Shown here in pieces: positions 3,979 to 42,036 of a stretch of 43,982 nt of DNA. The stretch lies in UHGV virus genome UHGV-0179801, one strand, 5' to 3'. The translations under genes were made by a program, and so were the position numbers. Source of the DNA: a virus. Numbering within the stretch: the first letter of the stretch is position 1; each line of letters begins with the position of its first letter. The notes under the pieces were generated by a model that had not been told where the DNA came from, ran no database searches, and was given only the letters and a program-made list of their open reading frames with translations.

Positions 3979-4242
3979 CTATTCCAGAATATTCCTCACA
4001 TAATCCTGCAACATGAACACTTTCAGTCTCAGTTGCCGTGCACATTCGGCATTCTGAACGTCGATAGCTAAATCCTCGTCCGCGTCGCTACTTGGCGGCG
4101 CCAGTTTGCACGGCGGCTGCATCATCGTCATATCCGGGGATGGAATTAGCGTTTGCGACGGCGCGGGACTTGAGCAGGACGCGAGCATCGTCGAAAGTGC
4201 ACACGCTGCGGCCAGGCGTTTTAATGTACTTAACGACTTCAC
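3979..4242 (-). CDS. o-spanin (Rz1-like outer-membrane lipoprotein)
   Basis: Signal peptide with lipobox LASC then a Pro-rich mature region; begins in the +1 frame inside the Rz-like gene and extends past its stop (overlapped spanin architecture). Confidence 0.55.
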   Translation of the reverse strand: MKSLSTLKRLAAACALSTMLASCSSPAPSQTLIPSPDMTMMQPPCKLAPPSSDADEDLAIDVQNAECARQLRLKVFMLQDYVRNILE

Positions 4243-4474
4243 GGGTAATCACCTCTGATTTCGTCTTGCCTTCGTTGTCAGCGGCTGCGGCCTTTGATTC
4301 ATCCTGCTGCTGCCGTTGTGTTTTCTTTGCTAACTCGGTCTGTGCTTTCTGCTGTTGCTGCGAAACGAGATTCGCCCGGCCTTCGTTCCAGCCGCTGCGA
4401 TATTGGTAGATGCCGTGGGCGTAAGACAGGATGATGAAACATGCTCCTGCTACGACAGTTGCTTTAAGATTCAT
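4088..4474 (-). CDS. i-spanin (Rz-like)
   Basis: N-terminal TM helix (ATVVAGACFIILSYAHGIY) followed by a charged Gln/Lys/Glu-rich periplasmic coiled-coil region; AAAGGAGAAAC RBS; contains the embedded lipoprotein ORF. Confidence 0.55.
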   Translation of the reverse strand: MNLKATVVAGACFIILSYAHGIYQYRSGWNEGRANLVSQQQQKAQTELAKKTQRQQQDESKAAAADNEGKTKSEVITREVVKYIKTPGRSVCTFDDARVLLKSRAVANANSIPGYDDDAAAVQTGAAK

Positions 4475-4793
4475 GTTTCTCCTTTCTCGATAAGTAAAGC
4501 CCCGCCATAAAGCGGGGCGCTAGTCCTTATCATTTAAACATAGAAACGGCGTAATCTCAGTAAACCAGTTACTTTTTACACAAGCAATAGATTATGGCCC
4601 TTCCGAACGCGTCAGCGTAACTACACTCAGGACTTACGTCCCGCTCCGTTACCTGCCCGCGCCGCGGTCGCTTGTTCATACTTCACAAGCTCAGGTGGAG
4701 CTTAGCACATTTTTAGTGAAAAGTCAACTATTCGAATAGTTTATTCCAAGATTTACAATTCGGTGGAATAACTGGGATACCTAACCAAATAGT

Positions 4794-4822
4794 TTGCACA
4801 CACCAATATAATAGGGTACTAT
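4794..4822 (+). promoter_or_regulatory. sigma70-like promoter TTGCAC-N17-TACTAT with AATAG-N4-CTATT inverted repeat
   Basis: Conserved 25-nt block caccaatataatagggtactattca (4801-4825), near-identical at 6608 and 40231, followed by the conserved leader tcgaaacgaggaga and an ATG. Confidence 0.55.
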
Positions 4823-4850
4823 TCATTACATCGAAACGAGGAGATGAAAA

Positions 4851-5024
4851 ATGTTCAAAGAAAAAGACATAATGCACGAAAACGGCAAATACTGGGTTCT
4901 AAATGATAAAGGAGTGTACTGCGTAATGATTTCCGGGTTTACCCACGCTAAAGCTGATAGTGCATACGCTAGTTTAGATTTAGCGATAGCCCGCTGTGAT
5001 TATCTGGCGAGTAGAGACGCATAA
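4851..5024 (+). CDS. small moron protein (57 aa), hypothetical
   Basis: ATG 4851 after the conserved promoter/leader (gaggagatgaaaaATG); opposite strand to the flanking late genes; followed by a terminator hairpin. Confidence 0.5.
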   Translation: MFKEKDIMHENGKYWVLNDKGVYCVMISGFTHAKADSAYASLDLAIARCDYLASRDA

Positions 5025-5027
5025 ACT

Positions 5028-5050
5028 AAGGCCCCGTAATGGGGCCTTTT
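5028..5050 (+). terminator. rho-independent terminator (AAGGCCCC-gtaat-GGGGCCTT-TT)
   Basis: Perfect 8-bp GC-rich stem, 5-nt loop, T-run; member of a conserved hairpin family recurring at 7183, 30767 and 42010. Confidence 0.6.
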
Positions 5051-5051
5051 A

Positions 5052-5510
5052 TCAATCTGGCTTAGTGACCTTCGCCGCCTTGCTTACCACCTCAACTCCA
5101 TCGGTATCAGTAACTTTAACGAAGTATTCGCCAGCTGCGTTAACCGACAGAGACAAAGCCTGTTCTGGTGCGTTAACCACTTCCTTACCGTCCTTGTACC
5201 AGGTCAGAGTATACGGCGCTTTACCCGCTTTAACTTCGACAGTGATAGTTGCGCTGCCGTCTGCCAGTTCGGCGTCCTGCGGTTGCACAGAGAAATACAC
5301 ATCGCCAGCATCAGCCAGATACGGAATCTCATAAAGCATACCCGCCGCCGGCAGCGCAATACCGGTTTTATCTGCAAACGGCATATCGTCTACGGGCGTA
5401 CCGAGTACACTTTCATCTTCAATAAATACCACGTTCTCGCCGGAGCCAGACACGCGGGCGTACTGGACTACGCGACGCGCGGGTACATCAGTTACTTTGA
5501 AAAAGCCCAT
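5052..5510 (-). CDS. Ig-like domain structural protein
   Basis: Track ORF; GGGGA RBS; C-terminal Ig-like signature (APYTLTWYKDGKEV ... GEYFVKVTD); downstream of the head morphogenesis gene. Confidence 0.5.
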   Translation of the reverse strand: MGFFKVTDVPARRVVQYARVSGSGENVVFIEDESVLGTPVDDMPFADKTGIALPAAGMLYEIPYLADAGDVYFSVQPQDAELADGSATITVEVKAGKAPYTLTWYKDGKEVVNAPEQALSLSVNAAGEYFVKVTDTDGVEVVSKAAKVTKPD

Positions 5511-5512
5511 CG

Positions 5513-6556
5513 TTATTCCCCTTTCAGATAATCAGCAACACGTTTATCGAGTTCCGCCATCTGCTTAAGCGTCAGCGGATTCCCGAAACCATCTACAGAT
5601 ATTACGCGAAACTCTTCCGGTGATATACCGCTGTTACGGAAAATCTTACCGCGTGTCGGCCCGAGTGCTTCATCCTGAAACCATGCCGGTTGTTGTTTCA
5701 GGAACTCGTAATAGGTTGTGTCCGCGCTTACCTGAGTTCCTCCGTCTGCACCCTTAGCCGCACGTTTTGCGCCTTTATCGAGGAAGTCGAACTCCGAGCT
5801 AATTACCGGAGCCGTGCACGACCGGCAGTTCGGATGGGCGGGGGGCATCGGCCCTTTACCAATTTCCCACGTCATCCCGTCTCTGGCTCTGCAAATCGTA
5901 CTTGTACGGCTGTCGAGGGTGGATACCCACTCGTACTTCTCGATGATGTCGTCGTTCTGACGGTACGTCTCGTTACGTGCTTCGTTGGACACGTGGGACA
6001 GCGCGGTGCGTATTACAGTAGCCGCATTGCGCTCAGAGACATCGGCCAGGCCACCCGCGCCAACAACATTCTTAACAATCTGCCGTGTGGTTTGGCCTTG
6101 TACAAATCCCATCTTAACGCCCGTTACCAGGCGCGCGACCTCCGCTTCGCCCCAGCCATCCATCAGCTTGGTGAAATCGACAGGCTTGTCACTTAGTGAC
6201 AGAGGTTGAAACTCGGCAGCGGCCCACACCTGCTCAGCGGTAGGAGTAATAAATTCTGCGTTAACATTGGTCGTCAGTGTTTTTACGTTCCACTCAGCCT
6301 CATATGCCGCCAGTTCCTTAAGGTCTTCTGTCAGCTTTGTTTGCCAGTCACCTGTAAGGCCTGCCAGTGCTTCTTCGAGGTCGCGTAACAGTTTATTCAG
6401 TCTGGCGGTGCTGCGACCGTCGTCGCCGAATAACAGCACCTGCCGTTTTATTTCGTCACGCATCTCCTGAATGAACGGTGTGAGGTCTTTCACCTCGCCG
6501 GATGCGGTGCGTTGCAGCCATATCTGGTGGCTGATTAAGGATGTAAGTAAGCTCAT
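5513..6556 (-). CDS. head morphogenesis / minor capsid protein (Mu F-like, SPP1 gp7-like)
   Basis: Motif STLDSRTSTICRARDG typical of the Mu-F/gp7 family; located after the portal gene; ATG 6556 with GGAGGG RBS preferred over the track start 6613. Confidence 0.65.
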   Translation of the reverse strand: MSLLTSLISHQIWLQRTASGEVKDLTPFIQEMRDEIKRQVLLFGDDGRSTARLNKLLRDLEEALAGLTGDWQTKLTEDLKELAAYEAEWNVKTLTTNVNAEFITPTAEQVWAAAEFQPLSLSDKPVDFTKLMDGWGEAEVARLVTGVKMGFVQGQTTRQIVKNVVGAGGLADVSERNAATVIRTALSHVSNEARNETYRQNDDIIEKYEWVSTLDSRTSTICRARDGMTWEIGKGPMPPAHPNCRSCTAPVISSEFDFLDKGAKRAAKGADGGTQVSADTTYYEFLKQQPAWFQDEALGPTRGKIFRNSGISPEEFRVISVDGFGNPLTLKQMAELDKRVADYLKGE

Positions 6557-6600
6557 ATGCCCTCCTGTAGTATCGACAGTGTAACGCATAAAAATAATAT

Positions 6601-6629
6601 TTGCAGACACCAATATAATAGGGTACTAT
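6601..6629 (+). promoter_or_regulatory. sigma70-like promoter TTGCAG-N17-TACTAT (conserved family)
   Basis: Same 25-nt block as at 4801 and 40231, followed by the conserved leader tcgaaacgaggagatgagaaATG. Confidence 0.55.
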
Positions 6630-6656
6630 TCAGTTATCGAAACGAGGAGATGAGAA

Positions 6657-7178
6657 ATGGTTACTACAGTAATTACTTTCCCTGCGTATGTAGGGGCGAA
6701 AATCTGCAGGGCGAAAAATGATGTGCGCTATTATTTGAACGCTTTTTACATAGACCCTGAAGGATTGATAGTTTCTACGGATGGTCACAGATTGTTCTGC
6801 GACAACGTGAAGACAAACGTCGAAACTGGAGTTCTAATAGACATCAAAGGGAGGGAGCCTTCTAAATTTAACTACGCGGAGGTAGACCACGACAACGGTA
6901 GTGTTTCTTTCTATGACGATAGTAGTGCGCTTGTATGTACACTTCCTATTGAAGTTGTAGACGGGAGATTTCCTTACTGGAGACGTGTGGCCGGCATTAC
7001 GCCGGGTTCAGTCGATAGCATAGGGTTCTCTCTGCGCTATTTGGCGGACGCGTACAAGATTTCTAAGGCATACAAAAATGAAATTGCCCGTTTCGATTTC
7101 CAGGACCAAACAAACGGATGCAAAATATCATTTTCAAACACTGCATTTATGGTGCTAATGCCAGCGCGATTTAAATAA
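6657..7178 (+). CDS. truncated DnaN-like (beta sliding clamp) protein, 173 aa
   Basis: Matches to recalled E. coli DnaN: NDVRYYLN (DnaN DVRYYLNG), STDGHRL (ATDGHRLA), VVDGRFPYWRRV (LVDGRFPDYRRV), SIGFSLRYLAD (EIGFNVSYVLD), C-terminal AFMVLMPARFK (AYVVMPMRL). Roughly half DnaN length; own promoter and terminator. Confidence 0.7.
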   Translation: MVTTVITFPAYVGAKICRAKNDVRYYLNAFYIDPEGLIVSTDGHRLFCDNVKTNVETGVLIDIKGREPSKFNYAEVDHDNGSVSFYDDSSALVCTLPIEVVDGRFPYWRRVAGITPGSVDSIGFSLRYLADAYKISKAYKNEIARFDFQDQTNGCKISFSNTAFMVLMPARFK

Positions 7179-7182
7179 AACT

Positions 7183-7208
7183 AAGGCCCCGAAAGGGGCC
7201 TTTTCTTT
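7183..7208 (+). terminator. rho-independent terminator (AAGGCCCC-gaaa-GGGGCCTT-TTCTTT)
   Basis: 8-bp stem, GAAA loop, T-run, directly after the stop at 7176-7178; same hairpin family as 5028. Confidence 0.6.
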
Positions 7209-8679
7209 ACTCCTGTTGCTGCTGCGCCGACTGCGGAATCTCTCCTGCTACCTGAGTAACAGCACCCAATGGCAACGGTGCATCTTCGATAGCGTTCTGA
7301 ATATCCTCGTCGGTCCAGTCGGTCACACCTGCCTTACGCAACGCCGCATAGTAAGCGGTAGCCGGTAGCAGGCCCGCGTTAATGTCCGCCATCCACTGAG
7401 CGCGGTCCTGGGCGGTCATCGGTTGCAGGAAGAACTCCATATTCAGTTTGAACTCAATCTCTGTGCCTTCACGCAGCCCAAGCATCGCCGCTACCCAGCG
7501 CAACGCATCTGTATACGCCATGCTTACATTACGTGCGATTGTCGCCATGACGGACGTATCCGCACCACGTTGCAGGCGGGCTGATTCGGCGGTGATTTGC
7601 TGCGTCGGGGTGATAAGCTGTGCGCCAATCTGAATTGCCTGATTCTCTTTATCCAGCATGTTCTGTTTGGCGAGGTTGTTCTCTCCCGCCTGAACCAGAA
7701 ACGCATTGCCGCCGTAGCCGATGTTATGGCCTGAACGAGACCCCATGCGCACGCCGTGTGGGTTAGCTTCTTTCCACTGTTCCATGCTCATGTTCTCACC
7801 TGGCGCAATGAACAGAGTGGGCTGGCCTACAACGAAGCTGGACTCCTCATTGTCCGCGCTGTTGCGGAAATGTCCGATATTAAGCTCAGCCAACGGCAGC
7901 AAAGGTGCATCATCAATGGTTGCGTCGTTGTTGCTCGCCCCAATGAACGTGAACGGTATTTTACCGCGCAGCTGTTCTCCGAGTTCCGGGAAGATTTCGA
8001 TTACGTCACCCTGAGCACCACCTTCGGCGTCGAAGCGGTAAATGCGCTGGCGGTAGCGCCCGTCAATCAAATCGAGAACGCGGTATTGTTCGCCGAATTT
8101 TGTTTCGAACTCCGCGCCCGGTTCTGAGTATTCCCACACCTCACGCAGCACGACCGTTGTCACACGGTTAACAGAACCGATGCGTGTCAGTCGCCAGTTG
8201 ATGATGTTCTCTGCGGTATAGAATGCGATTACCGGGTTTAATAACCCCGCGTTCTGCTCTGCCGCCGTTGCCGCGGCTGTCTCTGGGGCGTCCACCAGCA
8301 ACCCGCCGCGGCCAACCGAGTCAATCTCCATCAGCGTGTCCTGCGCGTGCTGCCACAACCCGACACCAGAACCGTCGGCATTACGTAACAGGTACTCCAG
8401 TTCAGGCGGGATAATTTGCTCGGGGTCTTTACGCATCACTGACCCCACCATCCCGGCCAGAGTACGTTTGGTGAAGTTGTAGCAGATAGCGCCGTTCTCG
8501 TATTCTTCCTGGCGCTGCGCAGCGTAGGTAGGCTCCGGCTCGTTCTTCCCGACGTTGCGAAGATAGCGGATAAGGTCGCCTTCCAGCGCGTGGCGTACCT
8601 TCTGCCATTTATCGAAGTGATGCAGCCATTCCCGGTGTTTTGTTTTAACACCCTGATTCTGACCGTTCATAGTTAACAT
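7207..8679 (-). CDS. portal protein
   Basis: 490-aa ORF immediately downstream of the large terminase gene; AGAGGA RBS; size and position typical of a portal. Confidence 0.7.
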   Translation of the reverse strand: MLTMNGQNQGVKTKHREWLHHFDKWQKVRHALEGDLIRYLRNVGKNEPEPTYAAQRQEEYENGAICYNFTKRTLAGMVGSVMRKDPEQIIPPELEYLLRNADGSGVGLWQHAQDTLMEIDSVGRGGLLVDAPETAAATAAEQNAGLLNPVIAFYTAENIINWRLTRIGSVNRVTTVVLREVWEYSEPGAEFETKFGEQYRVLDLIDGRYRQRIYRFDAEGGAQGDVIEIFPELGEQLRGKIPFTFIGASNNDATIDDAPLLPLAELNIGHFRNSADNEESSFVVGQPTLFIAPGENMSMEQWKEANPHGVRMGSRSGHNIGYGGNAFLVQAGENNLAKQNMLDKENQAIQIGAQLITPTQQITAESARLQRGADTSVMATIARNVSMAYTDALRWVAAMLGLREGTEIEFKLNMEFFLQPMTAQDRAQWMADINAGLLPATAYYAALRKAGVTDWTDEDIQNAIEDAPLPLGAVTQVAGEIPQSAQQQQE

Positions 8680-8691
8680 TGAATAATCCTC

Positions 8692-9963
8692 TTAAAGTGC
8701 GAAAGTCACCGGGACGTTAATAACTGGTTTGCGAATCGGCATTTCATACGCAATTGGGTATGTGGTTCCGTCATTCTGATGGTCCACGCCGCCAGATTTA
8801 TCCGGTTCGCCGTTCTTGTCGTAAGCCTGTTGCTCAAGGCATCGCGCCGTAACCGGACAAGCCTGCTCGTTAATCATGACCATACCAGATTCAAGCGCCT
8901 TATTCATCGCCGATACTCGGTCTTTAACCGGTGGGTTTGCCGATTTTGCACGCACTTCGAAACCGGCCTGCTGTAACTGGGCGATGTCTGATGTACTGGC
9001 GTTGTTGCTTTTACGGTTTTTGCCGCTGGCGTCAGGATACATAACAATATAGTGGCCTTTACTTTTCCATCGCTCTGTTATCGCCCGCACCACATCTGGC
9101 GTGTCGAACATATCAACCAACTCGGCAACAGCGTGCCAGACTTTACCACGTTGCACGTAAACTGTGCTCGCCATGTGACCTACGTTAAAATCCTGCCCAA
9201 TATACAGAGTCTCGCCAGGCTTGATTGTTTCGCGACTGCTGTTTTTCCTGCGGTCGTAAGCGTAATAGACCGTTCCGGCTGTGAGGTTTACGAACTCGCC
9301 GTTGATGTAGGCATCAATCAACTGCCCCGGGTAGGTGTCGCGCAATGACTGCACATAATCTTCTGGCAGGAACGGGTTAGACAGGGTGGATGCCTGAATC
9401 ATCTCGTAACCGGGATTCTTTTTGACCACCCAGCGGTCATGTACGAAACGGAATCCCTCCGGCGTAGTGAACACGGAAACGGTATTAGCCGGTTTAGGTG
9501 TAATAGGTTTATATGTCCGCGGCAACTGGCGGTTACGGGCGATGACTTTGTTCCACGCGTGCTCGGCGTGCTCCATGTTAAGGGTGTCCAACTCGTCGAT
9601 TTTTGCGCGAAACGATTCGTAGCCAACGATTCGTGCTGGATTATCGAGAGTACGCAGGACAAAATCCCCGAATTGTCCGGATGATGTATAGATTATGTTG
9701 TCGGACTTATTGTATTTGTACCTCACGCCCCAGTCGGTGAGTTTTTCTTCCATACGAGGCGCAAGGATGAGGCGCACCAGGTCGTATGTCGGCTCGTACA
9801 TGGCGATGATAGAATCGCTACCACCTTCCATGCTGTCGAGTAGTGCAGAGTTGCACATAACTTCGGATTTGCCAGTGCCAAATCCCGCCACGAATGCCGG
9901 AAACTTGCAGTGCATTCCGAGAAACGCGCCTTGCGGTTCTGTCGCCGTGATATTAACGTTCAC
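8692..9963 (-). CDS. terminase large subunit
   Basis: Walker A-like GFGTGKS near the N-terminus; 423 aa; start overlaps the small terminase stop; followed by the portal gene. Confidence 0.75.
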   Translation of the reverse strand: MNVNITATEPQGAFLGMHCKFPAFVAGFGTGKSEVMCNSALLDSMEGGSDSIIAMYEPTYDLVRLILAPRMEEKLTDWGVRYKYNKSDNIIYTSSGQFGDFVLRTLDNPARIVGYESFRAKIDELDTLNMEHAEHAWNKVIARNRQLPRTYKPITPKPANTVSVFTTPEGFRFVHDRWVVKKNPGYEMIQASTLSNPFLPEDYVQSLRDTYPGQLIDAYINGEFVNLTAGTVYYAYDRRKNSSRETIKPGETLYIGQDFNVGHMASTVYVQRGKVWHAVAELVDMFDTPDVVRAITERWKSKGHYIVMYPDASGKNRKSNNASTSDIAQLQQAGFEVRAKSANPPVKDRVSAMNKALESGMVMINEQACPVTARCLEQQAYDKNGEPDKSGGVDHQNDGTTYPIAYEMPIRKPVINVPVTFAL

Positions 9964-10462
9964 CGGACACCACCTTAATTGTTACTTCACTGATTGGCTC
10001 GTCGCGTACTTCTTCGGGGGCAACAGTTTTATTCAGCCCCAGTTTCGCGGCAGCAAACGTAGCGGAGATACCGGCTGCGCCCGTCTCAGTGAAGTAGGCC
10101 TCTTCCAGCGCCTGTGCGGTTTCATAGGCTTCTGCAAATGCGGGAATCTCGCGCAGCCACAGTTTAATAATCGGGATAGTGACGCCGATGTGTAAGGCAA
10201 AGCGAGCCAGTGATGGGGGTTTATCCTGAATCAGCGGGCGCTCGTCACCCTTGGACGTAGGCACAAGTTCCCACGACGTGCGGTCGAAGAACTCGATTAA
10301 TTCGTCGCAATAGTCCGGGTCCCACAACGCGGCGGAATTACGGGATGATTGATAAAGGCTCTGTTTACCGTGCGGCCGCCTGCGGCGACGGTTTGCGCTA
10401 ACAGCTTCTTCATGTGCAGCTTGCACCACCTCTGGCGATGGCTGCTTGAGTTTCAGCTTCAT
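9953..10462 (-). CDS. terminase small subunit (putative)
   Basis: Assigned by position: immediately upstream of and overlapping the large terminase gene. ATG 10462 with AAGGGGA RBS preferred over track start 10501. Confidence 0.45.
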   Translation of the reverse strand: MKLKLKQPSPEVVQAAHEEAVSANRRRRRPHGKQSLYQSSRNSAALWDPDYCDELIEFFDRTSWELVPTSKGDERPLIQDKPPSLARFALHIGVTIPIIKLWLREIPAFAEAYETAQALEEAYFTETGAAGISATFAAAKLGLNKTVAPEEVRDEPISEVTIKVVSGER

Positions 10463-10552
10463 AGAATCCCCTTGCATATGCGTCTGACCATCAGAGCGCA
10501 CCAGACGCGCCCTACGCGTCTAAAGGGATTATATAAGGGGATTGGGCGGGAT

Positions 10553-10580
10553 GTACAGAAAAGCACTCCGTAGAGTGCTT
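10553..10580 (-). terminator. putative rho-independent terminator (minus strand)
   Basis: Perfect 8-bp inverted repeat AAGCACTC/GAGTGCTT with a 4-nt loop, followed on the minus strand by TTTTCTGT; lies between the small-gene block and the terminase genes. Confidence 0.45.
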
Positions 10581-10585
10581 GTTGG

Positions 10586-10726
10586 TCAGGAGATGGCCTT
10601 AAATACGAAGGCTACTGTAACACACGCGGCAAAGAACGTAACGCAGTTCAACAACCATTGCACGACCCAATATCGGTGTGGTTTAGCTGCAATCCAGTCA
10701 CTTATTTTATCCAGAATATCTTTCAT
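10586..10726 (-). CDS. small hydrophobic protein (46 aa)
   Basis: Not in track; ATG 10726 with GGAGAGCGAGAG RBS; hydrophobic stretch VVQWLLNCVTFFAACVTVAFVF. Confidence 0.35.
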   Translation of the reverse strand: MKDILDKISDWIAAKPHRYWVVQWLLNCVTFFAACVTVAFVFKAIS

Positions 10727-10769
10727 CTCTCGCTCTCCAATCAATTATACAGGCCGTATCATGGTTATT

Positions 10770-11000
10770 TTACAGCTCTACAGACGCTAGACGACTGGCT
10801 GCGGCTTTAACCGTATCTTTAAGGTTATCATACGCGGAAGTAAAAGACGTATGCGCTCCTTTTGAGGCAACTGTAGCGCCGCCGTTAAAGTACGCTTTTG
10901 CTCTCCAGCTACCATTTACCTTATCAATAAGGATGTAGTGGCTACCTTCTTCCGTTACCGTAACTGTGTTTTCATCGATTACTTCAAATTTAGTATCCAT
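10770..11000 (-). CDS. hypothetical protein (76 aa)
   Basis: Track ORF on the leftward small-gene block. Confidence 0.45.
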   Translation of the reverse strand: MDTKFEVIDENTVTVTEEGSHYILIDKVNGSWRAKAYFNGGATVASKGAHTSFTSAYDNLKDTVKAAASRLASVEL

Positions 11001-11187
11001 ATTTGCTCTCTCTCTGTTCGTTAAATTAGTGTATGAAGCGTTTTAACTATACTAGCAGGCTATTCACGCGTCAACAACTTCTGTCTGTATCAGTTATATA
11101 GGCCGTGGCGTGGTGCTCTTTTACCGTCGCCACCGTAATGGTCGTTAGCTACGGCTATAACCCAGGCGTTTTGGATGATTAGCATTC

Positions 11188-11367
11188 TCATTTCAAGAAT
11201 CTCAACAGGGCATCGGCAATACCTGATGTTACCAGTCCGAAAAACATAGGCCACCAGATATATCCGGGCAGATTGGTAAATGTTTCTGGCTTAGTACAGA
11301 AAGCCAGTAAAAACGCGAACCAAAACACTATATAACTAATGCTGCTGAGTAATTCTAAAATGCTCAT
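11188..11367 (-). CDS. small membrane protein (59 aa)
   Basis: Not in track; ATG overlaps the upstream stop (ATGA); two hydrophobic segments (ISYIVFWFAFLLAF, WWPMFFGLVTSGIA). Confidence 0.4.
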   Translation of the reverse strand: MSILELLSSISYIVFWFAFLLAFCTKPETFTNLPGYIWWPMFFGLVTSGIADALLRFLK

Positions 11368-11878: not shown

Positions 11879-11881
11879 TAT

Positions 11882-16436: not shown

Positions 16437-16709
16437 TTACTCAACAGCACCTGTTATTGCTATAAGCCCAGTTTTACCCCGGCGGCGGTACTTACGAATC
16501 ACCGTTTTAAGTTCGTCATTACTACTCTGATGCCCAAAAGTGATCGGCAACTCTTCCCCACCTGTCATACCAAACTCGGTGTCTGTCGGTTTGTTCCGCC
16601 ACCCCTGAATAAAACCGAAACGGTCGCGAGTTATATACCGGTAGTTGTTAGGGAGGGGCAATTCCAGCCCCTCAAAATCAACGGTAACGGTGTAGCTGCT
16701 AAAATTCAT
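16437..16709 (-). CDS. hypothetical protein (90 aa)
   Basis: Track ORF 16437..16715 (TTG); ATG at 16709 used. Confidence 0.45.
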   Translation of the reverse strand: MNFSSYTVTVDFEGLELPLPNNYRYITRDRFGFIQGWRNKPTDTEFGMTGGEELPITFGHQSSNDELKTVIRKYRRRGKTGLIAITGAVE

Positions 16710-16848
16710 AGTCAATTACCCCGAACTCGTTGATGATTTGCGCCTTGTAGAAGTTGCCGTTTGAGGCCAGGTGATACGCCTGCGCCATAGTCATCTCGCG
16801 ATAAGTTGCGGTGCTATTTTCAAACTCCATAACCATCAAAGTAACCAT
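16699..16848 (-). CDS. small hypothetical protein (49 aa)
   Basis: Not in track; ATG 16848 with the same conserved leader AAACGAGAGGAGAGACAGAAG, directly downstream of a promoter. Confidence 0.35.
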   Translation of the reverse strand: MVTLMVMEFENSTATYREMTMAQAYHLASNGNFYKAQIINEFGVIDYEF

Positions 16849-16879
16849 CTTCTGTCTCTCCTCTCGTTTGTGCAAATGA

Positions 16880-16908
16880 ATAGTAACCTATTCTATCCCA
16901 GTGAGCAA
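16880..16908 (-). promoter_or_regulatory. sigma70-like promoter TTGCTC-N17-TACTAT (minus strand) with AATAG-N4-CTATT repeat
   Basis: Minus-sense reads TTGCTC-17 nt-TACTAT then the conserved leader and an ATG; inverted repeat at 16879-16892. Confidence 0.5.
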
Positions 16909-17804: not shown

Positions 17805-18023
17805 TTATTTAAAGTAGATAGCGAATTTCTTGTAACCCGCAGGCTCGTTACGAAGCCCTTTACCATTAGCGAAACGTTGTACGTTGTTAAAATCATTTTC
17901 ATCCATTCCGTCGGTGTCGAACGTAAAGAAGTTGCGTTTGTTCCTGATAATTACGCGCTCTGAAATATCGATACCGTAAACTTCTTTGATTGCTGAAACT
18001 ACGCTTGCAGTCGCTTTGTTCAT
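17805..18023 (-). CDS. hypothetical protein (72 aa), first gene of the leftward block
   Basis: ATG 18023 with AAGGAA RBS, about 35 nt downstream of the conserved promoter. Confidence 0.5.
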   Translation of the reverse strand: MNKATASVVSAIKEVYGIDISERVIIRNKRNFFTFDTDGMDENDFNNVQRFANGKGLRNEPAGYKKFAIYFK

Positions 18024-18056
18024 CTTTAAATTCCTTATGTCTCGTTGCTATAAGTG

Positions 18057-18086
18057 AATAGTATCCTATTATATTGGTGTGTGCAA
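18057..18086 (-). promoter_or_regulatory. sigma70-like promoter TTGCAC-N17-TACTAT (minus strand)
   Basis: Reverse complement of 18054-18086 is ttgcacacaccaatataataggatactattcac, the same conserved block as at 4794, 6601 and 40223. Confidence 0.55.
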
Positions 18087-21555: not shown

Positions 21556-21584
21556 AAAAAAAATAAAGGGGCGTTAAGCCCCTT
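21551..21584 (-). terminator. rho-independent terminator for the XRE gene (minus strand)
   Basis: AAGGGGC/GCCCCTT stem with a 5-nt loop, followed on the minus strand by a >=10-nt T-run. Confidence 0.6.
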
Positions 21585-21789
21585 CACCAAACGCCAGCCA
21601 CTTTGCGTCTACTTGCAGCACTTCCGCCAGCTTGAACAGCGTCGCTGGACGTACGTCCTGAGTTACCCCAAGTGCCAGCTGGTTAATCGCGCCCTGGGAA
21701 ACACCGGCCAGGACAGCCAGACGGCGCTGGGAGATGCCGAGTTCTTTGCGGCGTTGTTCTACACGGATGCCTAGTTCAGATGGTTGCAT
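21574..21789 (-). CDS. XRE-family (Cro/CI-type) HTH transcriptional regulator (71 aa)
   Basis: LGISQRRLAVLAGVSQGAINQL is a classic HTH_3 helix-turn-helix; AAGGAG RBS; transcribed divergently from the early promoter at 21854. Confidence 0.7.
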   Translation of the reverse strand: MQPSELGIRVEQRRKELGISQRRLAVLAGVSQGAINQLALGVTQDVRPATLFKLAEVLQVDAKWLAFGEGA

Positions 21790-21815: not shown

Positions 21816-21840
21816 TGTGAATAGTACCATATTAATTATT
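21816..21840 (-). promoter_or_regulatory. promoter/operator for the XRE gene (TGnTACTAT extended -10, degenerate AATAG-N4-ATATT repeat)
   Basis: Minus-sense aattaatatggTACTATtcac about 25 nt upstream of the XRE start; shares the tgaatagt core with the other promoters. Confidence 0.45.
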
Positions 21841-21853
21841 TTAGAAAAGCCCA

Positions 21854-21882
21854 TTGACATCATGAATAGTTCGCTATTATAG
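21854..21882 (+). promoter_or_regulatory. sigma70-like promoter TTGACA-N15/17-TATTAT/TTATAG with AATAG-TTCG-CTATT repeat
   Basis: Consensus -35 TTGACA; inverted repeat 21865-21878 overlaps the -10; followed by leader ccaaacgagaggagagacaaaATG. Confidence 0.55.
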
Positions 21883-21913
21883 TTAGCCCATACCAAACGA
21901 GAGGAGAGACAAA

Positions 21914-22063: not shown

Positions 22064-22078
22064 ACAGGAGAGAAACAA

Positions 22079-24421: not shown

Positions 24422-24447
24422 TTGACACCTGAATAGTTAGCTATTAT
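24422..24447 (+). promoter_or_regulatory. sigma70-like promoter TTGACA-N14/17-TATTAT/TATATT with AATAG-TTAG-CTATT repeat
   Basis: gttgacacctgaatagttagctattatattc upstream of the SSB-like gene. Confidence 0.55.
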
Positions 24448-24516
24448 ATTCTAATCACTGGCCGGGCAGCTCCCGGAGTAAACTTTGAAATATAAACTGA
24501 AAAGCGAGAAATCAAG

Positions 24517-27761: not shown

Positions 27762-28067
27762 ATGAGCACGCCTGAGGGCCGCGTACAGAAATACGCAAAG
27801 GAGCGATTCGAGGCCATTGGTGGCCTCGTTAGAAAGCTGTCTTATGAGGGTAGAAACGGAGCGCCTGACCTGCTGGTAGTCCTTCCGGGAGGGGTGATAT
27901 GGTTCGTCGAGGTGAAGAAAGACGAAAACACGGAACCGGAGGCCCATCAGTTGCGGGAACACAAACGGCTTCGTAAACGTGACGCAAATGTTTTTGTAGT
28001 AGGAACAAAAGAAGAGGTTGACACCCTAATAGCGAACTATTATAGTAGCCATACACCAACAATATAA
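27762..28067 (+). CDS. VRR-NUC domain nuclease
   Basis: GAPDLLVVLPGGVIWFVEVKK matches the VRR-NUC PD-(D/E)XK signature; GGGAGGGG RBS. Confidence 0.65.
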   Translation: MSTPEGRVQKYAKERFEAIGGLVRKLSYEGRNGAPDLLVVLPGGVIWFVEVKKDENTEPEAHQLREHKRLRKRDANVFVVGTKEEVDTLIANYYSSHTPTI

Positions 28068-30766: not shown

Positions 30767-30793
30767 AAGGCCCCAAACGGGGCCTTAGTTTTA
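30767..30793. terminator. bidirectional rho-independent terminator (AAGGCCCC-aaac-GGGGCCTT)
   Basis: 8-bp stem; T-rich tracts on both strands (agtttta on plus, ttttctct on minus); sits between the convergent replication operon and the tailspike gene. Confidence 0.6.
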
Positions 30794-40222: not shown

Positions 40223-40251
40223 TTGCACACCCCAATATAATAGGGTACTAT
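40223..40251 (+). promoter_or_regulatory. sigma70-like promoter TTGCAC-N17-TACTAT (conserved family)
   Basis: acttgcacaccccaatataatagggtactattca, the same block as at 4794 and 6601. Confidence 0.55.
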
Positions 40252-40281
40252 TCACTTACACCAACAATGGAGGAGTTTAAA

Positions 40282-40473
40282 ATGTCAAGTTTACCAGTTT
40301 CCTTAATTCTGTTTGCACTACTCGCTTATTTTGCGCCTTTCCTGGTTGCATATTTCCGCAACCATAAAGCGAAGTTAGCGATATTCATGGCTAACCTGTT
40401 TCTTGGCTGGATTCTGCTGCCGTGGGTATTTATTTTAATCTGGGCTTGCAACTCGAATGTCAAAGAGAAGTGA
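40282..40473 (+). CDS. small membrane protein (63 aa)
   Basis: ATG 40282 after GGAGGAG RBS; two hydrophobic helices (LPVSLILFALLAYFAPFLVAYF, LFLGWILLPWVFILIWA). Confidence 0.5.
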   Translation: MSSLPVSLILFALLAYFAPFLVAYFRNHKAKLAIFMANLFLGWILLPWVFILIWACNSNVKEK

Positions 40474-40510: not shown

Positions 40511-41641
40511 ATGGCCAGGAAGAAAATAACCGACGAACAGTTGCAGGAAGAATTGAACGCCGGTATGAAGAATATCGACATCGCTCGTAAATACGGCATC
40601 TCAGACCGCGTTATTCGCATCCGTAAAGCGAAGCTGGCAAAGAAAGGCGTAGGTCATGGGCGCGACGTTAGCCACCTTGTGCCAGATGGCTACAAGATTA
40701 AAGGAACGTCGTCACTTGTCGATGAGTTCGGCAACACTAAATTGCAATGGGTTAAGACCGACACCGATGCTGAACGTCAGGTTGAACTGATGAAAGCCGT
40801 GGTTGAAGGTATGAAGTCAGAGATTACCCCGGTTGCGCCTGTTAAAGCGACTCGAGCCAAACGTGACGATAAACTGCTCAATCTTTACACTGTGTCTGAT
40901 TTCCATCTCGGTATGCTTGCATGGGCCGACGAGAGTGGCGACGACTGGGACATGAAGATTGCAGAAGACCTGTTCTCTCGCTGGTTCGACGCAGCGTTTC
41001 AGAAAGCGCCGGACGCAGGAACGGGCGTTATTAACCTGCTTGGTGACCTTGCGCACTTCGATAGTCTGGATGCCGTTACGCCGGCAAGCGGTCATGTTCT
41101 TGACGCAGACACGCGCTATCAGAAACTGGTCCGCTACATGATTCGTATGGTCCGCCGTGTCGTTGATATGGCCCTTGTTAAGCATAAAAATGTTCGCTTG
41201 CTTATTGTGCAAGGGAACCACGACGAGAGTGGCATGATTTGGCTGGCTGAGATGTTCAGTACGCTATACGACAACGAGCCGCGTGTGTTCGTCGATACGT
41301 CACCGGATGTTTACAAGATGGCGCGACACGGCAAAACAACGTTGTTCTTTCACCATGGACATAAAGCACGCTTCGACGCTATCGAGCCGGTTATGATTGC
41401 CAAGTTCCGCAAAGCGTTCGGCGAGAGTGTTTACAGCTACGCTCACGTAGGGCACCTGCACCATCAGAAGATTGTAGAAAGCCGTAACATGATTGTTGAG
41501 CAGCACCGCACTTTAGCGGCTAAAGATGCCTACGCCTCCCGCGGCGGATGGATGTCAGGCCGTAGTGCAAACGTAATTACTTATAGCGCCGAATATGGCG
41601 AGGTCGCGCGTTTAACTATTTCACCGGAGATGCTGGGATGA
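40511..41641 (+). CDS. HTH domain fused to calcineurin-like metallophosphoesterase
   Basis: N-terminal HTH-like NIDIARKYGISDRVIRIRKAK; phosphoesterase motifs VSDFHLG, GDLAHFD, GNHDE, HHGH, GHLHH. Confidence 0.65.
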   Translation: MARKKITDEQLQEELNAGMKNIDIARKYGISDRVIRIRKAKLAKKGVGHGRDVSHLVPDGYKIKGTSSLVDEFGNTKLQWVKTDTDAERQVELMKAVVEGMKSEITPVAPVKATRAKRDDKLLNLYTVSDFHLGMLAWADESGDDWDMKIAEDLFSRWFDAAFQKAPDAGTGVINLLGDLAHFDSLDAVTPASGHVLDADTRYQKLVRYMIRMVRRVVDMALVKHKNVRLLIVQGNHDESGMIWLAEMFSTLYDNEPRVFVDTSPDVYKMARHGKTTLFFHHGHKARFDAIEPVMIAKFRKAFGESVYSYAHVGHLHHQKIVESRNMIVEQHRTLAAKDAYASRGGWMSGRSANVITYSAEYGEVARLTISPEMLG

Positions 41642-41868
41642 CTTCAAAATACAACCGCACAATGACAAACACTCACGGTAGCACTATGACAGTAGATGTT
41701 TACGATGTGCTACGTGCCTTCGACATCCGCGACCCGGCGTTGCAACACGCATTGAAGAAACTATTGTGCATGGGCTTGCGGGGGCACAAGGACACCGGAA
41801 CAGACTTAGCGGAAGCAATTGAAAGTCTGGAGAAGTTACGGGAATATCGAAGCAATATTGACGAATAA
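41638..41868 (+). CDS. hypothetical protein (76 aa)
   Basis: Track ORF, ATGA-coupled to the phosphoesterase gene. Confidence 0.45.
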   Translation: MTSKYNRTMTNTHGSTMTVDVYDVLRAFDIRDPALQHALKKLLCMGLRGHKDTGTDLAEAIESLEKLREYRSNIDE

Positions 41869-41882
41869 CTACTAGGTATTTT

Positions 41883-42005
41883 ATGAAACTAATTATTAAC
41901 TTCTTTAAAGCCTTAACAGGTAACGATTTTGAGATCGACGGAGGTTGGCTAGTGTATGACCCTACTTTTGATACTTGGTTGTGGCATAAAGAGAAACCTC
42001 GATGA
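41883..42005 (+). CDS. small hypothetical protein (40 aa)
   Basis: Not in track; ATG 41883; ends just before the terminator. Confidence 0.3.
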   Translation: MKLIINFFKALTGNDFEIDGGWLVYDPTFDTWLWHKEKPR

Positions 42006-42009: not shown

Positions 42010-42036
42010 AAGGCCCCTTTCGGGGCCTTAGTTTTA
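42010..42036. terminator. bidirectional rho-independent terminator (AAGGCCCC-tttc-GGGGCCTT)
   Basis: 8-bp stem with T-tracts on both strands, between the rightward cassette and the convergent major tail gene. Confidence 0.6.

What the first reader, a model, noticed from the sequence alone, without database searches (positions are those of the whole stretch)
4794..5050. Three rightward cassettes inside leftward structural operons share one promoter/leader and one terminator design
The cassettes at 4794-5050, 6601-7208 and 40223-42036 each start with the same ~30-nt promoter (TTGCAC/G-N17-TACTAT, 25-nt identical core caccaatataatagggtactattca). The first two are followed by the same leader (tcgaaacgaggaga...ATG), and each ends with an AAGGCCCC-N4/5-GGGGCCTT hairpin. 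All lie on the strand opposite the surrounding late genes. This is moron-like architecture but with unusually uniform control elements, suggesting a co-regulated set of accessory genes.
Basis: seen in the sequence. Interest (0 to 1): 0.55.

Follow-up and report, generated by a model that had tools for sequence, protein, structure and literature searches.

The report
Swappable promoter-terminator gene cassettes in phage
Three small backward-facing gene units in this virulent E. coli phage genome share one promoter and one terminator hairpin, and relatives show the genes inside being swapped, moved or lost while the control elements stay: a known style of phage gene shuffling, seen here in a new phage group.

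Summary
The window is a Kagunavirus-like (Guernseyvirinae) siphophage genome. The three + strand cassettes (4794-5048, 6601-7202, 40223-42029) share TTGCAc-N17-TACTAT with an identical 23-nt core (0 expected by chance), and each ends at a GGCCCC-N4/5-GGGGCC hairpin.

The same design drives leftward genes at 18055 and 16877 and a 434-Cro-like HTH gene at 21818.

Its core is a 14-bp palindrome, AATAG-N4-CTATT. It occurs 9 times exactly (0.015 expected). It also sits inverted in the spacer of four near-consensus sigma-70 promoters (21854, 24422, 28018, 11074).

In relatives fetched through the portal protein alone, the same slots are empty or hold different cargo:
- Slot 1 was occupied in 23 of 32 loci and slot 2 in 13 of 35.
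- 32 of these 36 occupied slots carry this promoter, and all 36 carry the hairpin.
- Whole cassettes also switch slots; one contig has the window's two cassettes reciprocally swapped.

Best reading: accessory-gene cassettes wired into a phage regulon, probably Cro-like-controlled, and exchanged by homologous recombination at the shared ends. This resembles T4 PeSL cassettes and lambdoid morons. Transcription and regulator binding are untested. The motif was already published as PHIRE "phage promoters".

The parts
4794..4822 (+). Cassette 1 promoter (L design): -35 TTGCAC 4794-4799, 17-nt spacer, -10 TACTAT 4817-4822. The palindrome AATAG-GGTA-CTATT at 4810-4823 overlaps the -10.
4823..4850 (+). 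Cassette 1 leader and Shine-Dalgarno (ttacatcgaaacgaggagatgaaaa). It is one of at least two leader alleles that are shuffled independently of cargo in relatives.
4851..5024 (+). Cassette 1 cargo: a 57-aa protein of unknown function (phrog_20712), G+C 0.414.
5028..5048 (.). Cassette 1 hairpin AAGGCCCC-gtaat-GGGGCCTT (-15.4 kcal/mol on +, -16.6 on -), between the convergent cargo and the Hoc-like gene.
6601..6629 (+). Cassette 2 promoter (L design): TTGCAG-N17-TACTAT, with the palindrome at 6617-6630.
6657..7178 (+). Cassette 2 cargo: a 173-aa truncated beta-sliding-clamp-like protein (aligns to E. coli DnaN about 144-280), G+C 0.435.
7183..7202 (.). Cassette 2 hairpin AAGGCCCC-gaaa-GGGGCCTT, terminator-like on both strands.
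40223..40251 (+). Cassette 3 promoter (L design): TTGCAC-N17-TACTAT, with the palindrome at 40239-40252.
40267..40473 (+). Cassette 3 gene 1: superinfection immunity protein (PF14373). The likely true start is the ATG at 40282, behind GGAGGAG.
40511..41641 (+). Cassette 3 gene 2: a 376-aa metallophosphoesterase / DNA-repair-exonuclease-like protein (phrog_704). Its G+C is genome-typical (0.513), and it is present in all 15 hairpin-bounded slot-3 cassettes analysed in relatives and in Jerseyvirus SE2.
41638..42005 (+). Cassette 3 genes 3 and 4: a 76-aa protein (41638-41868) and a 40-aa ORF (41883-42005). This is the variable tail of the cassette in relatives.
42010..42029 (.). Cassette 3 hairpin AAGGCCCC-tttc-GGGGCCTT. 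It is the same element as at 7183, inverted, and is terminator-like on both strands.
18055..18086 (-). Fourth near-identical L-design promoter (TTGCAC-N17-TACTAT), heading the leftward gene run that starts at 18023..17805 (72 aa).
16877..16908 (-). L-design promoter TTGCTC-N17-TACTAT upstream of the 49-aa DUF7170 gene 16848..16699.
21818..21851 (-). L-design copy with a weak -35 upstream of the Cro-like gene. Its palindrome at 21820-21833 has one mismatch.
21574..21789 (-). 71-aa HTH_3 protein whose closest solved relative is phage 434 Cro. It is the candidate binder of the palindrome. It forms a fourth opposite-strand island, with its own hairpin and T-run at about 21551-21582.
21854..21883 (+). 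R-design promoter TTGACA-N18-TATAGT with the inverted palindrome (21865-21878) in the spacer. It diverges from the Cro-like gene and lies upstream of a 49-aa ORF starting near 21908.
24422..24450 (+). R-design promoter TTGACA-N17-TATATT (11/12 to consensus), palindrome at 24432-24445, upstream of the SSB-like gene at 24517.
28018..28046 (+). R-design promoter TTGACA-N17-TATAGT (11/12), palindrome at 28028-28041, upstream of 28079 and the C5-methylase gene.
11046..11074 (-). R-design promoter TTGACG-N17-TATAGT (10/12) with a one-mismatch palindrome (11051-11064), upstream of a 76-aa gene and the terminase genes.
30767..30786 (.). Fourth hairpin of the same design (AAGGCCCC-aaac-GGGGCCTT), at the convergent junction of the replication and tail modules.

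Best explanation
The three units are self-contained accessory-gene cassettes (promoter, leader, cargo, hairpin terminator). They sit in three conserved hot spots between leftward structural genes of a Guernseyvirinae siphophage:
- slot 1: spanin | Hoc-like gene
- slot 2: head-morphogenesis | portal
- slot 3: tail gene | tail tube

Shown by sequence and comparison:
- The slots are conserved across the subfamily.
- Each slot can be empty or filled.
- Cargo differs widely while the promoter core and hairpin stay fixed.
- Homology breaks fall inside the promoter or leader and at the hairpin.
- Entire cassettes move between slots.

Inferred, step 1. The promoter is read by host sigma-70 RNA polymerase, because no phage RNA polymerase is encoded. 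It belongs to a phage-wide set of at least ten promoters that all embed one 14-bp palindrome, AATAG-N4-CTATT. The palindrome overlaps the -10 in the TTGCAc design and lies in the spacer of the TTGACA design.

Inferred, step 2. This palindrome is an operator. The most likely binder is the phage's own 71-aa 434-Cro-like protein, whose gene sits between two such sites and divergent promoters. The cassettes would then switch together with the other regulated genes. I think they come on early and are then repressed, which would also spare the late leftward transcripts head-on collisions.

Inferred, step 3. The invariant 23-nt promoter core plus leader (about 60 bp) and the hairpin (about 30 bp) serve as short homology arms. 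Double crossovers between co-infecting phages can then replace or relocate cargo, and the new cargo arrives already wired for expression and insulated by the terminator.
For: Repeat statistics:
- The 23-mer occurs 3 times exactly plus once with 1 mismatch, against 0 expected.
- The 18-mer gives 9 matches against 0.04 expected.
- The palindrome occurs 9 times exactly against 0.015 expected. It is by far the commonest 5-bp-arm palindrome in the genome.

Promoter-like placement:
- Every copy with a gene behind it lies upstream of that gene's start in the right orientation. In the three cassettes the -10 ends 28-31 nt before the start codon.
- All four opposite-strand islands in the genome use the L design and end at a hairpin.

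Two designs share the palindrome:
- 132 L and 97 R distinct contexts were collected in relatives. The half-sites are near-invariant while the central 4 nt vary.
- The R sites score 10-12/12 against the sigma-70 consensus.

Regulator candidate:
- No RNA polymerase is found among the ORFs of 700 aa or more.
- The Cro-like protein matches HTH_3 at 1e-12 and 434 Cro at 5e-7, and has the same length, 71 aa.
- Two palindromes 45 bp apart lie between its gene and a divergent TTGACA promoter.

Cargo turnover:
- 28 protein families were found in 45 cassettes.
- EM1 has a Dam methylase in slot 1 and nothing in slot 2.
- In the unbiased portal-fetched sample, slot 1 is occupied in 23 of 32 loci (22 with the L design, 23 with the hairpin). 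Slot 2 is occupied in 13 of 35 (10 with the L design, 13 with the hairpin). Empty slots keep a hairpin.

Breakpoints and movement:
- Homology ends at 4825-4857 and resumes at 5023. For slot 2 it ends at 6636-6660 and resumes at 7173-7184.
- Alternatively the whole unit 6558-7215 is absent.
- The clamp cassette 6592-7204 aligns contiguously into slot 1 of six loci. In L044/L141 the window's two cassettes are reciprocally swapped.

Other support:
- G+C of c1, c2 and Imm is 0.41-0.44, against 0.51 for the genome and 0.52-0.56 for most of the flanking genes.
- Jerseyvirus SE2 and Cornellvirus SP-031 have the same opposite-strand slots with other cargo.
Against: - No transcript, 5'-end or binding data exist. 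No Guernseyvirinae transcriptome turned up in the paper library.
- The L design matches the sigma-70 consensus at only 7 of 12 positions, and the generic scan did not list it.
- The link from the Cro-like protein to the palindrome rests on geometry and gene position only.
- The covariation test was inconclusive. Cornellvirus SP-031 lacks the palindrome (0 exact copies) and uses TATATTA-N6-TAATATA at two cassette promoters. Yet its Cro-like recognition helix (TQSAISHL) is not very different from that of Jerseyvirus (SQSLITHL), which keeps the palindrome.
- A second small HTH protein (HTH_17, 18518-18688) is an equally available candidate.
- The timing (early, then shut off) is a guess.
- The hairpins look bidirectional, so it is unexplained how late leftward transcription crosses them.
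- Recombination at the shared ends is inferred from mosaic patterns and has not been observed.
Confidence: 0.7

Rival explanations
1. This is a plain sigma-70 promoter with no regulator. The identical sequence reflects only recent duplication or gene conversion among promoter copies during the same recombination that shuffles cargo, and the palindrome is incidental.
For: The three cassette copies are identical over 23 nt, well beyond what RNA polymerase contacts need. Recombination at these sites is evident and would homogenise them. The L design does contain TTG-N19-TAnnnT.
Against: The palindrome half-sites are also conserved in four R-design promoters. These have different flanks, different central 4 nt and the opposite orientation, so they cannot be recent duplicates of the cassette promoter. 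Spacer sequence is not normally conserved in sigma-70 promoters (established knowledge). Two copies flank the Cro-like gene. Nine exact copies against 0.015 expected.
Confidence: 0.15
2. The palindrome is a site for a different factor, either the HTH_17/MerR-excisionase-like protein (18518-18688) or a host protein. This factor acts as an activator, making the weak TTGCAc promoters a delayed ('middle') class rather than early, repressed ones.
For: The L design is a poor consensus match (7/12), as expected of activator-dependent promoters. The HTH_17 gene is the first gene of the rightward operon, and its own promoter (18457-18485) lacks the palindrome.
Against: The palindrome overlaps the -10 hexamer or fills the spacer. 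These positions are typical of repressors, not of class I/II activators (established knowledge of 434/lambda operators). The R-design promoters are already near consensus and need no activator. The 14-bp 5-4-5 geometry matches 434-type Cro/CI operators, and the only 434-Cro-like protein is the 71-aa one.
Confidence: 0.15
3. The motif is a promoter for a phage-encoded RNA polymerase, as stated for Kagunavirus fBC-Eco01.
For: The fBC-Eco01 paper (PMC9825357) and GenBank OM272052 label seven copies of tgAATAGTa-ccTATTat-T as phage RNAP promoters, on the strength of a PHIRE repeat search.
Against: The five ORFs of 700 aa or more are a primase-helicase-like AAA_25 protein, a family A DNA polymerase, the tape measure protein and two tail proteins. 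None is an RNA polymerase. The motif sits at exact sigma-70 geometry (TTG..-N17-TA...T, and TTGACA-N17/18-TATAGT).
Confidence: 0.02
4. The shared ends are targets of a site-specific enzyme (a homing endonuclease or recombinase) that moves the cassettes, rather than passive homology arms.
For: HNH endonuclease genes occur in some slot-3 cassettes (family F11), and homing-type insertions occur in the neighbouring head-morphogenesis gene of relatives. GGGG...CCCC stems were suggested as protein targets for PeSLs (PMC2839356).
Against: Most cassettes carry no nuclease or recombinase. The 5' junctions are spread over about 30 nt (4825 to 4857), as expected for homologous exchange and not for a fixed cut site. 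Leader alleles assort independently of cargo.
Confidence: 0.05

Closest known systems
PeSL (promoter-early stem-loop) cassettes of T4-like myoviruses (Arbiol et al. 2010, PMC2839356; Comeau et al. 2014, PMC4122927)
   Same: - Repeated, highly conserved sigma-70-type promoters paired with G/C-rich stem-loop terminators.
- They bracket small ORFan genes in variable regions between conserved core genes.
- Insertion, deletion and replacement of the bracketed genes between close relatives, with junctions inside the conserved elements.
- Cassettes arrive with their own expression signals and insulation.
   Different: - The host group is a 44-kb siphophage subfamily, not T4-like myoviruses.
- Promoter and hairpin sit at opposite ends of the cargo rather than forming one composite element of about 100 bp. 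Only the empty slot 2 shows them collapsed together.
- There are three fixed slots on the strand opposite the structural genes, rather than long same-strand hyperplastic regions.
- There are no flanking direct repeats, so mini-circle excision is not expected.
- The promoter carries an operator-like palindrome shared with the phage's other promoters.
Morons of lambdoid phages (Juhala et al. 2000; Hendrix et al. 2000; from my own knowledge, and as summarised in the discussion of PMC2839356)
   Same: - A promoter-gene-terminator unit lies between two genes that are adjacent in relatives.
- Its base composition is atypical.
- Its cargo is accessory (superinfection immunity, methylase, ORFans).
   Different: - Classical morons have unrelated, individual control elements and are thought to arrive by illegitimate recombination.
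- They are typically expressed from a prophage.
- Here the control elements are uniform, appear to be the vehicle of exchange, and the phage family is described as virulent (PMC9825357).
Phage 434 / lambda Cro-operator circuits
   Same: - A 71-aa HTH_3 protein whose closest solved relative is 434 Cro.
- 14-bp two-fold symmetric sites overlapping -10 or spacer elements.
- Two sites between divergent promoters at the regulator's own gene.
   Different: - No CI partner or lysogeny module was noticed.
- The sites are scattered over at least ten promoters around the whole genome, not clustered at OL and OR.
- The half-site sequence (AATAG) is unrelated to 434's ACAA.
- Binding is not shown.
PHIRE 'phage promoters' PP1-PP7 of Kagunavirus fBC-Eco01 (PMC9825357, Table S2; GenBank OM272052)
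   Same: This is the same sequence element at syntenic positions (consensus tgAATAGTa-ccTATTat-T is the reverse complement of the core here). The repeat itself is therefore already on record.
   Different: - It was reported only as a repeat list and attributed to a phage RNA polymerase that the genome does not encode.
- Not described there: the palindrome, the two promoter designs, the cassette/slot architecture, the cargo turnover.

Membership tests
Moron (promoter-gene-terminator unit inserted in a phage late region) | Lies between two genes that are adjacent in related phages | tested here: met
   Slot 2 is empty (87-96 bp) in 22 of 35 portal-fetched Kagunavirus-level loci, and slot 1 in 9 of 32. 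The unit 6558-7215 is absent as a block.
Moron (promoter-gene-terminator unit inserted in a phage late region) | Own promoter upstream and own terminator downstream | tested here: inconclusive
   Sequence signals are present and conserved. Activity cannot be tested with these tools.
Moron (promoter-gene-terminator unit inserted in a phage late region) | Base composition differs from the surrounding genome | tested here: met
   c1 0.414, c2 0.435, Imm 0.411 and the 40-aa ORF 0.374, against 0.506 for the genome. These values lie near the 5th percentile (the 40-aa ORF lower) of same-size windows. The slot-3 exonuclease gene does not differ (0.513).
Moron (promoter-gene-terminator unit inserted in a phage late region) | Control elements are individual to each moron, and arrival is by non-homologous recombination | tested here: not met
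   Promoter core and hairpin are shared by all three cassettes and by relatives, and the junctions fall inside them.
PeSL cassette system | Repeated conserved sigma-70-like promoter plus G/C stem-loop associated with variable ORFans | tested here: met
PeSL cassette system | Promoter and stem-loop form one composite intergenic element (stem-loop within or next to the -35/-10 region) | tested here: not met
   In filled cassettes the promoter and hairpin are 0.2-1.8 kb apart, at opposite ends. Only the empty slot 2 has a -10/palindrome remnant directly abutting a hairpin.
PeSL cassette system | Recombination between the elements inserts, deletes or replaces ORFs | tested here: met
   This is comparative evidence only. 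Replacement junctions lie at 4825-4857 and 5023. The same cargo is found in different slots, and L044/L141 show a reciprocal swap.
PeSL cassette system | Excised mini-circles detectable in infected cells or virions | not testable with these tools
   This needs inverse PCR. No flanking direct repeats exist here, so mini-circles are not expected.
434-type Cro/operator regulation | Small HTH_3 Cro-like protein encoded by the phage | tested here: met
   HTH_3 at E 1.2e-12. Best solved match is 434 Cro at E 4.9e-7, both 71 aa. Conserved in 568 phage records.
434-type Cro/operator regulation | Two-fold symmetric operators of about 14 bp overlapping core promoter elements, several at the regulator's own gene | tested here: met
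   AATAG-N4-CTATT occurs 9 times exactly. It overlaps the -10 (L design) or fills the spacer (R design). Two sites lie at 21820 and 21865.
434-type Cro/operator regulation | The protein binds the operators and changes transcription | not testable with these tools
   The covariation attempt across genera was inconclusive.
Phage-RNA-polymerase promoters (published label for this motif) | The genome encodes its own RNA polymerase | tested here: not met
   All ORFs of 700 aa or more are replication or tail proteins.

The most novel reading that the evidence does not exclude
Guernseyvirinae may run an integrase-free gene-cassette exchange system. A 23-bp operator-bearing promoter core and a GGCCCC hairpin would act as portable recombination linkers. 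ORFan cassettes could then hop between three fixed slots, and between co-infecting phages. Every newcomer would be wired automatically into a genome-wide regulon controlled by a Cro-like protein in a strictly virulent phage.
Probability: 0.35. Interest if true: 0.65.

Novelty: new variant of a known kind. Interest (0 to 1): 0.45.

Why it matters
If the model holds, this well-sampled family of coliphages and Salmonella phages, several of which are being developed for phage therapy and biocontrol, has three predictable landing pads. Accessory genes (superinfection immunity, methylases, clamp mimics, many ORFans) turn over there quickly. That gives three practical gains:
- It tells annotators where to look for host-interaction and anti-defence genes.
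- It gives engineers ready-made insulated insertion sites with a native promoter and terminator.
- It extends the PeSL idea, that conserved regulatory elements double as recombination linkers, from T4-like myoviruses to small siphophages.

The operator-like palindrome in at least ten promoters also points to a simple regulatory circuit in a virulent phage. That circuit can be tested with one purified 71-aa protein.

Tried and rejected
- Phage RNA polymerase promoters (the published label). Rejected because no polymerase gene is present.
- Known RNA elements in leaders or intergenic regions. Rfam gave 0 hits at gathering score.
- The generic sigma-70/terminator scan as evidence. Totals were no higher than in shuffles (22 vs 18.8, 23 vs 20.5; 18 vs 18.3, 21 vs 22.2), and the scan missed the L design. 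I used it only for individual sites.
- A leftward 'restart' promoter on the reverse strand of the motif (TATATT/TATTAT as -10). By eye, the -35 candidates differ with each leader allele and score 2-4 of 6. I did not adopt it.
- The perfect TATAAT inside the spacer (4807-4812) as the real -10. It has no -35 at 16-18 nt, and relatives have CATAAT or TAGAAT at that position.
- Host-factor boxes recalled from memory (ArgR, OxyR, CRP, LexA). Spacing or half-sites do not fit. These were not formally tested.
- Covariation of the Cro-like recognition helix with the palindrome across Kagunavirus, Jerseyvirus and Cornellvirus. Inconclusive.
- Literature search for Guernseyvirinae transcript maps or earlier descriptions of the cassettes. 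Only PHIRE promoter lists turned up. One search was badly specified and wasted.
- Function of the 57-aa cargo. It belongs to a small family of 25 clusters with no Pfam domain and no name.
Full report
WHAT THE WINDOW IS

Megablast of 4000-12000 against the phage collection finds 457 records. The best are Escherichia phages of the genus Kagunavirus (Guernseyvirinae) at about 91% identity over 71-80% of the query. The window is essentially one such ~44-kb genome.

- Structural and lysis genes run leftward: 18023 down to 32, continuing from 43954 down to 30796.
- Replication genes run rightward: 18518 to 30628.
- Four short islands interrupt this strand pattern. Three are the + strand cassettes of the finding. 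The fourth is a - strand gene at 21789..21574 inside the replication module.

CHECKING THE OBSERVATION

The sequence is as described.

- Promoters: TTGCAC 4794-4799 / TACTAT 4817-4822; TTGCAG 6601-6606 / TACTAT 6624-6629; TTGCAC 40223-40228 / TACTAT 40246-40251. Each has a 17-nt spacer.
- The 23-mer CCAATATAATAGGGTACTATTCA is exact at all three sites, with none expected in 100 shuffles.
- Cassettes 1 and 2 share the leader ..atcgaaacgaggagatga.aaATG.
- Each cassette ends at AAGGCCCC-N4/5-GGGGCCTT (5028-5048, 7183-7202, 42010-42029).
- The hairpins fold at -15.4 to -20.2 kcal/mol.
- They carry T-rich tails on both strands. Two of them are flagged as terminator-like in both directions.
- The element at 42010 is the 7183 element inverted.

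A fourth copy of the 23-mer (one mismatch) lies on the minus strand at 18055-18077, directly upstream of the first leftward gene, 18023..17805. Relaxing the pattern gives 9 matches against 0.04 expected. These add 16877 (-, upstream of a DUF7170 gene), 21818 (-, upstream of the HTH gene), 21863 (-) and 24430 (-).

The last two do not face genes. Read on the + strand, they lie in the spacer of strong sigma-70 promoters:
- TTGACA-N18-TATAGT at 21854-21883
- TTGACA-N17-TATATT at 24422-24450, which scores 11/12

The common denominator is a 14-bp palindrome, AATAG-N4-CTATT.
- It has 9 exact copies against 0.015 expected, and 14 within one mismatch against 0.95 expected.
- In an unbiased count of all 5-bp-arm palindromes it is the commonest in the genome by far. 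The terminator stem comes next.

TWO PROMOTER DESIGNS

The palindrome is used in two designs.

- L design: cTTGCAc-N8-atAATAGg.TACTATTCa. The right half-site overlaps the -10. It occurs at six sites: the three cassettes, 18055, 16877 and 21818.
- R design: TTGACA-N2/3-tgAATAG-N4-CTATTATAGT. The palindrome lies in the spacer. It occurs at 21854, 24422 and 28018 on the + strand, and at 11074-11046 on the - strand ahead of the terminase genes, with one mismatch.

Across relatives I collected 132 distinct L and 97 distinct R contexts. The half-sites are nearly invariant, while the central four bases and the flanks vary. Spacer bases of sigma-70 promoters are not normally conserved. The R sites cannot be recent copies of the L sites. 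The palindrome is therefore under its own constraint, which is the signature of a protein-binding site.

The overlap also explains the odd, invariant -10 TACTAT, since CTAT belongs to the half-site. It also explains why the L design scores only 7/12 against consensus and escaped the generic scan.

WHO MIGHT BIND IT

The five ORFs of 700 aa or more are an AAA_25 primase-helicase-type protein, a family A DNA polymerase, the tape measure protein and two tail proteins without a Pfam match. There is no phage RNA polymerase.

The gene at 21789..21574 encodes a 71-aa HTH_3 protein (E 1.2e-12). Its closest solved relative is phage 434 Cro, also 71 aa (E 4.9e-7). 434-type operators are likewise 14 bp with two-fold symmetry (established knowledge).

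This gene has an L-design site upstream. A second palindrome lies 45 bp further on, inside a divergent R-design promoter. That is the layout of an autoregulated Cro/CI control region. The protein is 93-100% conserved in Kagunavirus, about 51% in Jerseyvirus and about 40% in Cornellvirus.

I tried a covariation test.
- Jerseyvirus SE2 keeps the palindrome (3 exact plus 4 one-mismatch copies, at equivalent promoters).
- Cornellvirus SP-031 has none exact and shows TATATTA-N6-TAATATA at two cassette promoters.
- The recognition helices (SQGAINQL, SQSLITHL, TQSAISHL) do not separate cleanly.

The assignment therefore stays an inference. A second small HTH protein (HTH_17, 18518-18688) is the alternative candidate.

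DO CONTENTS VARY WHILE CONTROLS STAY FIXED

Yes. I first scanned IMG/VR for the exact 18-mer (49 loci) and mapped the flanks against window proteins.

Every copy lies in one of the three slots or at the early-left promoters:
- spanin | Hoc-like gene
- head-morphogenesis | portal
- tail gene | tail tube

It always faces away from the structural genes. Forty-five cassettes with a detected hairpin held 28 protein families:
- a Dam methylase (also in EM1)
- the truncated clamp
- an HAD/PNKP-type phosphatase, an HNH endonuclease and a Rha/KilAC protein
- many ORFans with no PHROG function

That sample was chosen by the motif, so I repeated the test on 70 loci fetched through the portal protein alone. 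Among Kagunavirus-level relatives (portal at least 82% identical):

| Slot | Distinct loci | Occupied | With L design | With hairpin | Empty | Empty with hairpin |
|---|---|---|---|---|---|---|
| 1 | 32 | 23 | 22 | 23 | 9 | 9 |
| 2 | 35 | 13 | 10 | 13 | 22 | 20 |

More distant relatives keep opposite-strand cassettes but not the palindrome. Some keep the aatagTTGCAAT context and the catcgaaacga leader. Annotated genomes of SE2 and SP-031 show the same slots filled with an amidase, methylases and other genes.

WHERE THE JOINTS ARE

BLAST of 4000-7400 against the 49 loci gives the following.

- Slot 1: homology ends at 4825-4857, from the last base of the invariant core to just past the ATG. It resumes at 5023, the first base of the hairpin element.
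- Slot 2, occupied: it ends at 6636-6660 and resumes at 7173-7184.
- Slot 2, empty: 6557 joins 7216, so the whole unit is an indel.

An empty slot 2 retains TTAATAGCATACTATaag directly followed by AGCCCCtttcGGGGCT. This is a collapsed promoter remnant plus hairpin.

Upstream of the core, the -35/spacer allele tracks the slot; slot 2 is always TTGCAGACACCAAT. Downstream, two leader alleles (..atcgaaacgaggag.. and ..aacttaaacaggag..) occur with the same cargo and with different cargo. Crossovers therefore fall both in the core and between leader and start codon.

Whole cassettes also change slot.
- The clamp cassette 6592-7204 aligns contiguously (88-94%) into slot 1 of six loci.
- A 94-aa cargo and a 61+76-aa pair each occur in either slot.
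- Contig IMGVR_UViG_3300010279_000003 (L044/L141) carries the window's two cassettes in reciprocally swapped slots.

The short cargo genes have G+C of 0.37-0.44, against 0.51 for the genome and 0.52-0.56 in most flanking genes. The slot-3 exonuclease gene is genome-typical and is present in all 15 hairpin-bounded slot-3 cassettes analysed.

HOW IT MOST LIKELY WORKS

Shown:
- The architecture, its conservation, the cargo turnover, the joint positions and the genome-wide palindrome.

Inferred:
- Host RNA polymerase starts about 7 nt after TACTAT, reads a leader of about 21-25 nt and the cargo, and stops at the hairpin.
- A phage protein, most likely the Cro-like one, binds the palindrome and switches all L and R promoters together.
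- Cargo such as superinfection immunity, methylase and DNA-metabolism proteins would be most useful early, and shut-off would avoid head-on conflict with late leftward transcription. I therefore favour early expression followed by repression.
- The ~60-bp promoter/leader and the ~30-bp hairpin act as homology arms for double crossovers between co-infecting relatives.

The hairpins look bidirectional and remain in empty slots. They are therefore native punctuation after the portal, Hoc-like and tail-tube genes. How late transcription passes them is open.

COMPARISON WITH WHAT IS KNOWN

The repeat itself is on record. The fBC-Eco01 paper lists seven copies (consensus tgAATAGTa-ccTATTat-T), found with PHIRE, and GenBank OM272052 annotates them. 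They are attributed there to a phage RNA polymerase, which the genome does not encode.

The closest mechanistic analogue is the PeSL system of T4-like phages. There, conserved early promoters plus stem-loops flank ORFans and mediate modular shuffling.

This is not a member of that family, for three reasons. Promoter and hairpin are not one composite element. No direct repeats flank a cassette. The phage group is different.

It meets the positional and compositional criteria of a moron. It does not meet the idea that moron control elements are individual and uninvolved in mobility.

I found no description of the slots, the cargo turnover or the palindrome in the searchable literature. The founding Jerseyvirinae paper is not in the library and could not be checked.

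VERDICT

- It is a new variant of a known kind. It is useful and tidy, of moderate interest to phage genomicists, and not a categorical surprise.
- The operator/Cro link and the recombination mechanism are testable inferences.

Noticed in passing
window 6657-7178: The cassette-2 protein (173 aa) aligns only to residues about 144-280 of bacterial beta sliding clamps (E about 1e-5). That is roughly one and a half of the three clamp domains. A truncated clamp could act as a clamp mimic or competitor rather than as a processivity factor.
   Followed up: partly
window 5510-5526, 5815-5825, 5897; loci L015, L024, L031, L037, L042, L043, L044, L048: Relatives carry 0.7-0.9 kb insertions at several points in or next to the head-morphogenesis gene. 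One record calls it a 'minor head protein with inserted intein', and fEg-Eco19 lists an HNH homing endonuclease here. This is a second, different kind of mobile insertion next to the cassettes.
   Followed up: no
L115 and L120, slot 2 (portal | head-morphogenesis): Two relatives carry a 217-aa cargo under a different promoter (TTGACA or TTGATT) that contains a long perfect palindrome of its own (AATGGTATATTTATATATACCATT; AAATTCTACATTCAAATGTAGAATTT). The cassette is still followed by the usual leader and closed by the usual hairpin. It may bring its own regulator site.
   Followed up: no
L091 (Salmonella phage FSL SP-031) 26544, 33280, 14066: The Cornellvirus relative lacks AATAG-N4-CTATT entirely. 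It has TATATTA-N6-TAATATA over the -10 of two opposite-strand cassette promoters. This may be a changed operator in that genus.
   Followed up: partly
L162 2501-2689 (JGI contig Ga0311359_10000892, 47 kb): A 57%-identical homologue of the 57-aa cassette-1 protein sits in an unrelated phage-like contig. It is inside a five-gene opposite-strand island near a Phage_portal_3 portal gene, separated from it by one small leftward ORF. Backward-facing accessory islands near the portal may be more general.
   Followed up: partly
window 17322-17335: An exact copy of the palindrome (AATAGTAACCTATT) has no recognisable -35. It lies immediately beside a hairpin terminator (17287-17308) within the leftward gene run. 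It could be an orphan operator or a decayed promoter.
   Followed up: no
window 18087-18517: About 430 bp without a convincing ORF separate the divergent leftward and rightward gene runs. The stretch holds a strong hairpin (18159-18179). It may hold an origin or a small RNA. Rfam finds nothing.
   Followed up: no
window 21908-22060: A 49-aa + strand ORF (MINNRKAKILLGLDIAFG...) is below the ORF-list cutoff. It follows the R-design promoter at 21854 with the same aaacgagaggagagac leader used by L-design units, so it is probably a real gene.
   Followed up: no
window 28267-29211: A C-5 cytosine DNA methylase gene lies in the rightward module, just downstream of the R-design promoter at 28018. Relatives instead carry Dam or N4/N6 methylases inside the cassettes. 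Methylase content is therefore variable and spread over several sites.
   Followed up: no
window 40267 vs 40282: The mechanical ORF for the superinfection immunity gene starts at 40267. The ATG at 40282, behind GGAGGAG, is the likely start. Relatives have no in-frame ATG at the earlier position or give a 63-aa product.
   Followed up: partly
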